Shown here one piece after another: positions 45,001-48,000 of a stretch of DNA of 64,000 bases. The DNA comes from Patescibacteria group bacterium (GTDB taxonomy: Bacteria; Patescibacteriota; Patescibacteriia; UBA2591; JAQUPP01). The stretch is taken from positions 7,709-71,708 of the forward strand of contig JBAZMD010000002.1 of assembly GCA_041649955.1 (NCBI GenBank). Reading direction: 5' to 3'. Positions within the stretch are counted from its first letter, which is position 1; every line of letters begins with the position of its first letter. The position numbers were made by a program.

Positions 45001-48000
45001 CTAGAACATGTAACCTATTAATATATTTTGCTACCGGTTTTAAACTATATTTATTTTTGAATTCTCCGACGCTTCGGTCGGAGCCCCGACCTATTGGCGT
45101 CGGGGTTGAATTTTGTATTTGTTTCAGATTTTTAAATGGATCCCCTATGTGACTAATTAAAATAACAATGGCTTTTTTTTGAATTAAATATTTAACAGTT
45201 TCCATGCTGGCCTGAATGCGCGCGTCATTAATAACCCGTCCGTTTTTTATCGGACAATTAAAATCAACTCTTACCAGTACCCTTTTTCCTTTTAAATTTT
45301 TAATTTCTTTAATTGTTTTTAACTTCATAATTTTAATATTATTATAACATAAAAACCAATCATCTACAAGCTTAAAATGTAAAGAAGGGACGAAAATTTT
45401 TCCGTCCCTTCTCTTGTTGGCAATTTTAATTTTTTAACGGCCAATACTTTATTGTTAGTTCAAACACTTTCTCTATTCTTTCTTTCAAATAATCGTGAGA
45501 AAATATTCCATCTTTAGCGGAATAAATAAGAGCACCCACAATAATATGCACCGGTTCACTGGTTAATCCTATTCTCATCCATCTTGTACCATCTATTTTA
45601 AAAACAGGAAGATCGAAAAGTTCGTGCAATTTCTTTTTTAATTGATCTGTCTCTCCTCCCAAAAGGCCACATTGCAGTTCCACGCCTATTACTGCCTTTT
45701 CTCCAACAGTCGCAGTTCTGAAAATACTCATAAAAGGGATCTCCAAAGTTTTTAAACAAACAATAGCGGTAATAACTCCTCCCGGCTGTAAAGTGTGAGA
45801 AATCTCCAATTCTTCTAAAATTTCTTCAAGTCTTTTTAATACTTCGTCTAACTTAATCTTGTCATTTTTCATTCTTCCTCCTTTTAGCTTAAATAGCTAT
45901 CTATAAGAATAGCTATTTTTTATTTTTTGTCAATGCTTTCCTGTTCCAACAATTGCCTAACCTGCTGAACCGCTTGCGGGTTTTTGCTTTCCATTTCATT
46001 GAAAATTTTCTCAGCTGTGGCTTGATCGCCGCCCTTAGCGTAAATCAAAGCGCAACCCAATTGGGAAGTTAAATTGTCAGGTTGCAGGCGAACAGCCCTG
46101 CCGCAAAAATCAAAAGCATTTCCAAAATCTTCAATTTCGGCATAAGCTCGGGCAATATTAAAATCAATACCTTCTTTATAATAACCTAGCTCTCTGGCTT
46201 TATTTATTGCGTCGGTGGCTTCTTTATTTTTACCCCAAACTAAATAAGCTTGCGCTAAATTCCAATATGATTCCCCTATTTTGTCATCAAAATTAACCGC
46301 TTCTTGAATAGTGCTGACGGCCTTTTCATATTCTCCCTTATAAAGATAAGTTCTGCCTAATTCAAAATAAACTTGCTGGCGTTTTGGCGAAAGTTCTGTC
46401 GCCTTTTTTAAAACTTCTTCCGCTTTATCAAGATACGCTTTATTATATTTTGAACCCAAATTATACAACTGGCCTAAATATAAATAATTTCTCACATCGC
46501 GAGGATGTTCTTGAATGCTTTTTTCAAACTCTTTAATGACAAAATCCTTGCCTTGCTGCAAAACAGCCGGATCAAGATTTGACTGACCCGGGAATTCAAC
46601 AATAGTTTTAGCCAGTTGCGTCCTGATTTCGGGATTTATAAAAATCGAGTTGGCTAAAGATTTTTTATACCAATCAATGCCTGCTTTTAAATCAACTCTA
46701 GAAGCGGAAATTCCAATAACCGCCGCCTTACTCTGAACAAAAGGCTCAAGATTAAATTTATAAATTGACCATGGCAAAAAAATAATAATCAAAAAAATCA
46801 AAATTGGAAGCGGAAATACATTAACTTGTAACTTATTTAATTGTTGTCCGTGTTTAGTTCCGCGTGAGTCCGCGTTTAGTTCGCGTAAGTCTGTGTCAAG
46901 TTCGCGTGAGTCCTTGTTCGTTGTTATAAAATAAGTTAGAGCCAGACCAAAATAAAAAATAATCAAAGGAGCGGGTGTATCAAAAACAGTTAGATTCTGG
47001 ATAAAATAAGCCAAAAACATGCAAGCGAATAATGCACCGCAAATTCTATATTTATTCGCAGCATTCTCCCTGCGTTTCCGTAATAGCAGCCAAAAAACCG
47101 TCCCAAAAACCGCTAAATAAGCCACTGTACCGACACTGCCGGTTAAAGTCAATAAATCTATAACTTGATTGTGCGAACGATCAAACCAAGTATTTTCCTG
47201 ACCTAAACCTAAATAATGAGGACTATAATACTTGTTAAAAATTATATTATAATTCTCCCAGCCCCAGCCTAAAATCGGTTTTTCTTTAAAGCCCTGCCAG
47301 CCGGCTTGCCAAACAATTGTTCGCTCGCTCGCGCTGCCGGTCAAATAAACAAGCCTCATAATAAAAACCGGCGCCTTATAAATCCATGGTTTTTCTTTTT
47401 GAGTTTGAAGAAAAAATATTCCGCTGATCGCAACCAATACCAATAAAATAAAAATGGAAATAAAAATTAATTTCAACTTTTTATTTCGCAGGTTTAAAAT
47501 TAAATAACCCAAAAATAATATAAATGATAATCCAAAAGCAAGCATTACTCCGCGTGAAGCGGCAAAAAGAATAATAGCTAAATTAAAAAAAACAAGAAAA
47601 ACAGCCAAAATTCGCCAAAAATATTTTTTCTCGGAGAACAACAAAAATCCGGATAAAAAAATATGGAGCATGGCGTAAACCGCCAAAAAAATCGGATTGC
47701 CGAGTGTTGCTGTCATTTGAGGATTATTTTCTTTCAATAAGAATTTTAATCCGAATTTTTGGCCCATACCGTATAATCCAATTAAAAAAGAACAAATCAA
47801 ACTTGTCCAAATTAATTTTCGCCAATCCTGCCATTTTTTAAAACAACTGGTTAAAATTAAAAACCATAAATAAAAATGAATCAAAGTTAAAATACCGGTC
47901 ATTCTTTCTTGGGTTGACCAAAAAGAGCGCGAAATATCAATGCCGGTCAGCATTGTTAAAATCAAAACGCCCATAAATGCCGTTAAACTGAAAATTAAAG

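What the first reader, a model, noticed from the sequence alone, without database searches (positions are those of the whole stretch)
46846..46915. Repeat-family copy made only of GTCCGCGT/GTCTGTGT units inside a Wzy/TPR membrane-protein gene
A 70-nt stretch of five tandem GT(C/T)CGCGT-like units interrupts the 763-aa O-antigen-ligase-like/TPR gene in frame, encoding ELDTDLRELNADSRGTKHGQQ. It shows that the half-element can exist alone and expand as a tandem array.
Basis: seen in the sequence. Interest (0 to 1): 0.5.

Follow-up and report, generated by a model that had tools for sequence, protein, structure and literature searches.

The report
Translated repeat array in Wzy linker
A 72-base run of seven 10-11-base repeat units sits in frame in a membrane sugar-polymer enzyme gene of a tiny-genome bacterium and is read as a floppy linker. 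It belongs to a repeat family that also sits in frame in SecA, PGK and MurC, so this is a Rickettsia-style case of selfish DNA inside genes, not a new machine.

Summary
Window 46846-46917 holds seven GTCYGYGT/GTTCGCGT units, not five. They are best described as about 3.4 copies of a 21-22-nt two-unit module. The array lies in frame in the 763-aa Wzy_C+TPR gene, at aa 432-456.

It belongs to a dispersed family with five copies in 64 kb. Three copies are full: four ACRCRGAC-type units, a loop, then four GTCAGTGT-type units in coding sense, and they fold as hairpins. They lie in MurC (two) and PGK. Two copies are one-armed, in SecA and Wzy.

Two close, syntenic relatives (SecA 95% identical) have no copy at the three sites they cover: SecA, PGK and Wzy. 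The Wzy site is a hypervariable linker between two membrane helices. It is the only long low-confidence stretch of the AlphaFold model.

In other organisms the same unit type forms palindromic arrays, intergenic in the loci inspected. Each arm gains or loses units, mostly two at a time, between near-identical populations.

Best reading: a selfish or neutral repeat copy, translated as a disordered spacer, that grew by in-frame two-unit slippage. It resembles Rickettsia palindromic elements in behaviour but not in architecture. How it spreads is unknown. Strain-level variation at this locus could not be tested.

The parts
46846..46917 (-). Target: a one-armed array of seven 10-11-nt units. In coding sense the units are ACRCGRAC-type. 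It amounts to about 3.4 copies of a 21-22-nt two-unit module and is translated as aa 432-456, KDSRELDTDLRELNADSRGTKHG.
   Evidence: Identical in a second assembly record.
45920..48211 (-). Host gene of 763 aa: a Wzy_C (O-antigen ligase/polymerase-like) membrane domain, a linker, one more membrane helix, and a C-terminal TPR domain.
   Evidence: AlphaFold model with mean pLDDT 83.4. The only long segment below pLDDT 50 is aa 434-465.
5905..5985 (-). Full two-armed family copy (4+4 units) in the MurC-like Mur ligase, between the M and C domains. Peptide: ADLHGRHTDGHRKCQCKSVLSQCQSV.
   Evidence: Hairpin z = -6.0. The same copy with 4+4 units is present in the related strain contig L144.
6457..6535 (-). 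Full two-armed family copy (4+4 units) in the Mur ligase M domain, just before the VVEACEW motif. Peptide: SRTNTDLTQTKTDSQCRSVSCPRKSV.
   Evidence: Hairpin z = -3.2.
38109..38147 (-). One-armed four-unit family copy in SecA. Peptide: AQTNTDETRTDTE. Absent from SecA of two relatives that are 95% identical.
   Evidence: No fold (z = 0.0).
44104..44185 (-). Full two-armed family copy (4+4 units) in PGK, in the loop before the STGGGA motif. Peptide: AQTNTDKNTDLHGNRQRKSVLSQYGSA. Absent from the PGK of both relatives.
   Evidence: Hairpin z = -4.3.

Best explanation
The array is a one-armed, locally amplified copy of a short dispersed repeat family. The unit is ACRCGGAC plus a 2-3-nt spacer, with a period near 10.5 nt. 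A full element is four units, a loop, and four near-complementary units.

In this Patescibacteria lineage the family has settled in permissive loops and linkers of housekeeping genes. In the Wzy_C-TPR gene it occupies the hypervariable, disordered linker between the last helix of the Wzy core and the membrane helix that precedes the TPR domain. It replaces the first part of the ancestral linker.

It is transcribed and translated with the gene as a charged, unstructured spacer. It grew from about four to seven units by replication slippage or unequal recombination in two-unit (21-nt, seven-codon) steps. In a coding region those are the only steps that survive.

Lacking the second arm, it cannot form the hairpin of the full copies. 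It most likely has no nucleic-acid function and is tolerated rather than selected.

Shown: family membership, lineage-specific presence, in-frame status, position in a low-confidence linker, 21-nt periodicity, and arm-wise unit-number polymorphism of the same unit type elsewhere.

Inferred: translation, the slippage history at this locus, neutrality, and the unknown way the family reaches new sites.
For: Family membership:
- GTCYGYGT is found 15 times against 1.4 expected, in five clusters.
- The five copies align unit by unit.
- The SecA and PGK copies share the same first 18 nt, GCACAGACTAACACGGAC, and the same frame.

Lineage-specific gain:
- L001-L003, about 60 kb of syntenic DNA from two relatives, contain no GTCYGYGT or ACACTGAC motifs.
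- SecA is 95% identical between the genomes, yet only the window carries the insert. The same holds for PGK.
- At the Wzy site the flanks are conserved and the middle is unrelated.
- A closer strain, L144 (92-94% nt identity), shares MurC copy 1.

Permissive site:
- All 22 orthologues have a length- and sequence-variable linker here.
- Several hold other tandem arrays there: L124 1335-1374, L125 9311-9394, L002 11317-11370.
- In the AlphaFold model, pLDDT is below 50 only at aa 99-103 and 434-465.

Translation:
- In four of five copies only one sense frame is open, and it is the host frame. In SecA two of three are open.

Expansion:
- TRF score is 95 at period 21 and 43 at period 10. Autocorrelation is 0.63 at shift 21.
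- Orthologous loci in metagenomes show 2+2, 2+4, 4+2 and 4+4 units between near-identical flanks.

No hairpin and no known RNA:
- (fold). Rfam finds only three tRNAs in the window.
Against: - No direct evidence exists of unit-number change at this locus. The two available assembly records are identical, and the protein's 90% cluster has a single member.
- MurC copy 1 kept 4+4 units across about 7% flank divergence. Arrays inside genes may therefore be fairly stable.
- No target-site duplication or clean insertion boundary is visible.
- No transposase or reverse transcriptase was found among the 30 window ORFs scanned for this purpose (615-32378, excluding MurC). The means of dispersal is unknown.
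- Neutrality is an argument from lack of conservation, not a measurement.
- The first module is 22 nt, not 21. The history therefore includes at least one indel as well as clean duplications.
Confidence: 0.65

Rival explanations
1. Contingency (phase-variation) locus. Slippage by a single 10- or 11-nt unit would shift the frame and detach the last membrane helix and TPR domain from the Wzy core. This would switch a surface-glycan function on and off in the population.
For: The unit length is not a multiple of three. The host gene lies in a surface-polysaccharide cluster with a flippase, UDP-sugar enzymes and glycosyltransferases. A single-unit change (12 nt) occurs at one intergenic locus elsewhere (locus5).
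Against: The same family sits in SecA, PGK and MurC, where frameshifts should be lethal. The units are degenerate, with 68% matches at period 10. The dominant period is the frame-preserving 21 nt. The two assembly records are identical and the ORF is intact.
Confidence: 0.06
2. Selected protein feature. The heptad-like D-S/L-R-E-L-D/N-T/A repeat, or simply the linker length, tunes the spacing or interaction between the Wzy core and the TPR domain. The repeat DNA is only the raw material.
For: Every orthologue keeps a hydrophilic linker of about 17-50 residues at this position. DSSP calls a short helix at aa 435-446 in the model. Tandem DNA repeats that create disordered protein regions under selection are reported for Borg elements (PMC9879509).
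Against: Neither linker sequence nor linker length is conserved, even between genomes whose Wzy proteins are 76-83% identical. The helix call has pLDDT near 31-36. The same DNA units give unrelated peptides in other frames in other genes.
Confidence: 0.12
3. Nucleic-acid-level element. The array is a run of binding sites on one face of the DNA helix (10.5-nt phasing), or an RNA motif array, that regulates the operon or is recognised by a host or mobile-element protein.
For: The period of about 10.5 nt matches the helical repeat. The same 8-mer core recurs in unrelated phyla, which could reflect recognition by a conserved factor. In four two-armed loci inspected in larger genomes, the copies lie in intergenic DNA bordering gene ends.
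Against: There is no Rfam match and no significant fold of the target. The close relatives lack it at the same site without any change in gene order. No candidate binding protein was identified. The unit sequence in the target is degenerate.
Confidence: 0.1
4. Purely local origin. The array arose in place by slippage of native linker sequence and resembles the other clusters only by chance or by convergence.
For: The linker is a hotspot for unrelated local tandem arrays in other lineages. In L125 the ATACKAAT unit is not enriched outside the linker. The native ACAAGGAY codons at the boundary resemble a unit.
Against: The units are the same GC-rich 8-mers, with the same spacing and the same TTA/GA-type spacers, as in four other genes. 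The array is 53% GC in a 35% GC genome. The motif is enriched about tenfold over shuffles. It is absent from the relatives.
Confidence: 0.04

Closest known systems
Rickettsia palindromic elements (RPE; Ogata et al. 2000 and 2002, as summarised in PMC10969869)
   Same: A dispersed short palindromic repeat family in a reduced genome. It is inserted in frame into unrelated housekeeping genes, translated with the host protein, and located where the fold tolerates it. No transposase is evident nearby.
   Different: RPEs are about 100-150 bp, with a family-specific conserved peptide. Here the full element is about 80 bp, built from 10-11-nt tandem units whose number can change. The target copy has only one arm and is not palindromic. 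The phylum is different, and no sequence relationship has been shown.
REP/BIME-type extragenic palindromes and MITEs found inside genes (ERIC, Correia, BOX; PMC10969869)
   Same: Short, hairpin-forming, multi-copy elements. In the larger genomes sampled here, the inspected two-armed copies of the same unit type lie in intergenic DNA bordering gene ends.
   Different: In the window all five copies are inside genes. No terminal inverted repeats with target-site duplication were seen. No RAYT or IS200-like gene was found in the part of the window scanned. The modular tandem-unit build is not typical of REPs.
Tandem nucleotide repeats that create disordered regions in Borg proteins (PMC9879509)
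   Same: DNA-level tandem repeats inside ORFs, with an effective period divisible by three, that add low-complexity, disordered protein segments.
   Different: According to that paper's abstract, Borg repeat regions arise independently and are recently formed. Here the units belong to a dispersed family shared by several genes and have a palindromic full form.
Contingency-locus simple sequence repeats in surface-polysaccharide genes of pathogens (my own knowledge; not tested here)
   Same: A repeat tract inside a surface-glycan gene, with a unit length that is not a multiple of three.
   Different: The units are long and degenerate. The dominant period preserves the frame. The same family sits in essential genes. 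No length variants have been observed.

Membership tests
Window repeat family (ACRCRGAC / GTCYGYGT units) | Units of the shared 8-mer core at 10-11-nt spacing | tested here: met
   Seven units at 46846-46917 with spacings of 11, 11, 11, 10, 11 and 10 nt. They align unit by unit with the four other copies.
Window repeat family (ACRCRGAC / GTCYGYGT units) | Two-armed 4+4 architecture that forms a hairpin | tested here: not met
   The target has one arm only. Its fold gives z = -2.2, with 7 of 200 shuffles as good; the full copies give -6.0, -3.2 and -4.3. The sequence where the second arm would be is homologous to the relatives' native linker. The target is therefore a half or derivative member, like the SecA copy.
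Rickettsia palindromic elements (as a kind: coding palindromes) | Dispersed copies inserted in frame in unrelated protein genes, with the ORF kept intact | tested here: met
   Five copies in four genes (MurC twice, SecA, PGK, Wzy), all open in the host frame.
Rickettsia palindromic elements (as a kind: coding palindromes) | Element of about 100-150 bp with sequence similarity to an RPE family and a conserved encoded peptide | tested here: not met
   The copies are 39-82 nt. The peptides differ with frame. No RPE library was available for a sequence comparison, so homology itself is untested.
MITE | Terminal inverted repeats flanked by a target-site duplication | tested here: inconclusive
   The full copies are palindromic throughout. 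Alignments with the relatives' empty sites show replaced or diverged flanks and no recognisable duplication.
REP/BIME | Extragenic location | tested here: not met
   All five window copies are inside genes. Inspected copies of the same unit type in other phyla are intergenic.
REP/BIME | Association with a RAYT (IS200/IS605-like) transposase in the genome | not tested
   Pfam scans of 30 ORFs in window 615-32378 found none. Of the rest of the window, only the MurC, SecA, PGK and Wzy hosts and six neighbouring ORFs were scanned. The rest of the genome was not examined.
Contingency locus (phase-variable repeat) | Length variants between cells or strains that switch the reading frame | not testable with these tools
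   No reads were available. The two assembly records are identical. The protein's 90% cluster has one member.
Rfam RNA families | Match to a curated covariance model at the gathering score | tested here: not met
   Only three tRNAs were found in the window.

The most novel reading that the evidence does not exclude
The window family may be the coding-region outpost of a widespread and, as far as I could find, undescribed class of modular hairpin repeats. The form is (ACAC[G/T]GAC + 2-3 nt)n, a loop, then (GTC[C/A]GTGT + 2-3 nt)n. The polarity is always the same, and each arm's unit number changes by slippage.

In the larger genomes inspected these arrays are intergenic. Here, in a Patescibacteria lineage with almost no intergenic space, they survive only as translated in-frame inserts in essential proteins. 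Their GC content (about 50% against 35% for the genome) and their absence from close relatives would fit recent horizontal acquisition, possibly from a host organism.
Probability: 0.25. Interest if true: 0.65.

Novelty: new variant of a known kind. Interest (0 to 1): 0.5.

Why it matters
Several housekeeping proteins of ultrasmall, gene-dense bacteria (SecA, PGK, MurC and a Wzy-like enzyme) carry recently gained, translated repeat DNA. This has three consequences.

- Protein lengths and "insertions" in such genomes need to be read with repeats in mind.
- It offers a second, independent natural system, after Rickettsia, for asking how selfish DNA enters coding sequence and becomes disordered protein segments.
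- It is a practical warning that these arrays may break assemblies. One contig of a related strain ends about 60 nt from a copy.

The unit-number polymorphisms seen at orthologous loci elsewhere make the slippage dynamics directly measurable.

Tried and rejected
The full-protein search gave only the identical protein, with a one-member cluster, followed by 83% and 76% orthologues. A search with the 106-aa linker fragment returned nothing. Neighbour-gene look-ups returned two other assembly records that are 100% identical. The related strain contig L144 covers only the MurC end of the window.
- **Genome-contig scan.** Some hits are chance matches or simple sequence. An example from the viral scan is the (GTGTCT)n tract in L193.
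- **Literature.** Searches for the 8-mers, for coding palindromes or intragenic repeats in Patescibacteria/CPR, and for REPs in PVC phyla found nothing relevant.
- **A decayed second arm next to the target.** Rejected, because that stretch (LNKLQVNV) is homologous to the relatives' native linker (NLKLNN).
- **Mobile-element genes.** None were found among the ORFs scanned. The neighbouring 148-aa ORF, which is specific to this lineage, has no Pfam hit.
- **Assembly artefact.** Rejected on the identical second assembly record and the independent recovery of a sister copy in another metagenome.

Full report
**Observation.** The + strand at 46846-46917 reads GTCCGTGTTTA GTTCCGCGTGA GTCCGCGTTTA GTTCGCGTAA GTCTGTGTCAA GTTCGCGTGA GTCCTTGT. 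Tandem Repeats Finder reports the tract at period 21 (3.4 copies, 78% matches, score 95) and at period 10 (5.3 copies, score 43). Self-identity peaks at shifts of 21 (0.63) and 42 (0.57), against 0.39 and 0.43 at shifts 10 and 11. Odd units are GTCYGYGT and even units are GTTC(C)GCGT. The array is therefore best described as about 3.4 copies of a two-unit module of 21-22 nt, or seven units in all, not five. GTCYGYGT occurs 15 times in the window against 1.38 expected from shuffles, and none of 100 shuffles reached 15.

**Host gene.** The tract lies in ORF 45920..48211 (-), 763 aa, with Pfam Wzy_C (E=1e-16) and several TPR families. In the host frame it reads KDSRELDTDLRELNADSRGTKHG, at aa 432-456. 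That is the only open sense frame. A separately deposited assembly record (ENA ERZ27247363, L209) is 100% identical to the window over 21.3 kb, array included.

**The family.** The motif hits fall in five clusters, all inside long minus-strand ORFs:
- two in a MurC-like Mur ligase, 5905-5985 and 6457-6535;
- one in SecA, 38109-38147;
- one in PGK, 44104-44185;
- the target in Wzy, 46846-46917.

Pfam confirms the host identities. Aligned in coding sense, the three long copies share one architecture: four ACRCRGAC-type units, a short loop that begins ...ACACRGAAA, then four GTCAGTGT-type units. As RNA they fold into long interrupted hairpins with z = -6.0, -3.2 and -4.3, and none of 200 shuffles folded as well.

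The SecA copy is exactly the four-unit 5' half and stops at the loop. The Wzy copy is seven units of the same arm. Neither folds significantly (z = 0.0 and -2.2). The SecA and PGK copies begin with the same 18 nt, GCACAGACTAACACGGAC, in the same frame (AQTNTD). In four of five copies the host frame is the only open sense frame; in SecA two of three are open. The copies are 48-56% GC in a 35% GC window. Rfam has no matching family.

**Comparison with relatives.** The organism is a Patescibacteria MAG. Two syntenic relatives were fetched: L001 (its Wzy protein is 83% identical) and L002/L003 (76%). Their roughly 60 kb of syntenic DNA contains no GTCYGYGT or ACACTGAC motifs.
- SecA is 95% identical across the three genomes. 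The window alone has AAQTNTDETRTDTEKSQEKLVINTE where the others have QPPVEENSEP--N.
- PGK likewise has an extra QTNTDKNTDLHGNRQRKSVLSQYGSA.
- At the Wzy site the flanks are conserved...TATTTTATAACAACGAACAAGGA on one side, and from CAATTAAATAAG into TTCCGCTTCCAATTTTGATT on the other. The middle is unrelated. The relatives carry an A-rich stretch with about 7-nt periodicity that encodes EARNPKSETNTKLKNQNLKLN.
- A closer strain, L144, is 92-94% identical to the window in nucleotides. It carries MurC copy 1 at the same place with the same 4+4 units and three substitutions.

The family thus predates the split from L144. It is missing from the L001/L002 lineages at the three sites that could be compared.

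**The site.** In an alignment of 22 orthologues, the segment between ...FYFGLALTYFIT and FPLPILIFLIIIF varies in length and sequence in every lineage. Several lineages hold their own tandem arrays there:
- GATACGAAT x4.4 in L124;
- TGATACTAA x4.3 followed by AAAATTG x5.6 in L125;
- AAACTCAAAATTCA x4.1 in L002.

An AlphaFold model built on that alignment has mean pLDDT 83.4. Only two segments fall below 50: aa 99-103 and aa 434-465. The second lies between helix 413-431 and helix 468-506 and coincides with the array. The array therefore sits in a disordered, permissive linker that precedes the last membrane helix and the TPR domain.

- Some hits are chance matches. But 56 loci have arrays of four to 22 exact units. 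Fifteen loci (17 array pairs) show the palindromic arrangement, always ACRCRGAC units first and GTCYGYGT units second. No pair had the reverse order.
- Those loci come from Lentisphaeria, Planctomycetota, Verrucomicrobiota, Acidobacteriota, a Desulfatirhabdium MAG and other phyla.
- In four loci inspected, the two-armed copies lie in intergenic DNA bordering gene ends: L083, L103 and L104 and L030 by sequence only.
- A more specific pattern carrying the window's signature (about one chance match expected) found 43 metagenome contigs. One is L144. Most of the rest have stops in every frame or only short open stretches across the element.
- At five orthologous loci with near-identical flanks, four show unit-number differences. 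Locus 1 shows 2+2, 2+4, 4+2 and 4+4 units. Locus 2 shows 2+2, 4+2 and 2+3. Locus 3 shows 2+2 against 2+4. Locus 5 shows 3 against 2.

This is direct evidence that arrays of this unit type gain and lose units on each arm independently, mostly two units at a time.

**Interpretation.** The target is a one-armed, amplified member of a dispersed repeat family that this lineage tolerates only where proteins are permissive. It is translated as a disordered spacer. Its 21-nt periodicity is what is expected if only frame-preserving two-unit slippage events survive in a coding region.

What is not shown:
- how copies reach new sites (no target-site duplication, no nearby transposase);
- whether this array still changes length;
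- whether the peptide matters.

The rivals are less likely but not excluded. A phase-variation switch is disfavoured by the presence of the family in essential genes, by the degeneracy of the units and by the dominant 21-nt period. A selected linker function is disfavoured by the lack of conservation between close relatives. A DNA- or RNA-level function is disfavoured by the missing second arm and by its absence in relatives. A purely local origin is contradicted by the shared units.

**Comparison with known systems.** In behaviour this is closest to Rickettsia palindromic elements, which insert in frame into unrelated genes of a reduced genome (PMC10969869). It fails their defining size and conserved-peptide features, and no sequence relationship was tested. 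It also differs from REPs and MITEs (extragenic location; TIR plus TSD) and from Borg tandem repeats, which arise independently rather than as a dispersed family (PMC9879509). I found no description of intragenic repeat families in Patescibacteria, or of this unit type, in the held literature. That is absence of evidence only. I rate it a new variant of a known kind, of moderate interest.

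Noticed in passing
L005 5416-5580; L011 1-245; L016 1960-2060; L030 385-485; L083 4734-4852; L103 684-771; L104 4293-4487 and 7433-7603: Arrays of the same ACACGGAC/GTCCGTGT units at 10-11-nt spacing occur in Lentisphaeria, Hydrogenedentota, Planctomycetota, Acidobacteriota, Verrucomicrobiota and other phyla. 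Where two-armed, the order is always ACACGGAC units then GTCCGTGT units (17 pairs against 0). The two-armed loci inspected lie in intergenic DNA bordering gene ends. One array has 22 units.
   Followed up: partly
L127-L169 (metagenome contigs), e.g. L133/L160/L139/L132 at one orthologous locus: Between near-identical populations the number of units per arm differs (2+2, 2+4, 4+2, 4+4; also 2+3 and 3 against 2). This is natural slippage polymorphism of this repeat type.
   Followed up: yes
window 45066-45103 (within PGK, aa ~65-87): PGK carries a second lineage-specific in-frame insert of another kind. It consists of two small GC-rich hairpins, CCCCGAC..GTCGGGG and CTCCGAC..GTCGGAG, bracketed by AATTC/GAATTC, and encodes ..NSTPTPIGRGSDRSVGEF. 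The CCGAC N4-12 GTCGG pattern occurs 3 times against 0.08 expected; the third hit is at 4047-4060.
   Followed up: partly
window 38662-38745; L002 18583-18673: An AT-rich palindrome built from 10-11-nt tandem units (TAGTTTnTGGT.. / ..ACCAnAAACTA) lies between the S30AE gene and secA. It is present at the same intergenic position in relative L002. It has the same modular architecture as the GC-rich family but a different unit.
   Followed up: partly
L124 1335-1374; L125 9311-9394; L002 11317-11370; L001 12635-12674: Other Patescibacteria hold unrelated tandem arrays in the same Wzy linker (GATACGAAT, TGATACTAA + AAAATTG, AAACTCAAAATTCA). The PGK genes of the relatives have their own inserts in other loops, for example an AAACTAC heptamer array. 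In-frame repeat inserts look common in this clade.
   Followed up: partly
window 45426-45872 (-): A 148-aa ORF between PGK and the Wzy/TPR gene has no Pfam match. It is absent from the same interval in L001 and L002.
   Followed up: partly
window 16252-17237: A LAGLIDADG_3-domain ORF (16355-16939, +) lies between two tRNA genes (16252-16335 and 16961-17033), with a third tRNA at 17166-17237. It may be linked to an intron or homing element.
   Followed up: no
window 615-1290 (-): A Gp49/HigB-like ORF (913-1290) overlaps an HTH_3 ORF (615-920). This looks like a toxin-antitoxin pair.
   Followed up: no
window 28752-30359 (-): The SecD-like protein carries a PPIC-type rotamase domain (aa ~144-232) between the SecD first domain and the P1 head. 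This is an unusual fusion.
   Followed up: no
L144 1-130 (contig Ga0172379_10006814): The locus from the related strain starts about 60 nt from MurC copy 1. This probably marks a contig end and fits these repeats breaking short-read assemblies.
   Followed up: no
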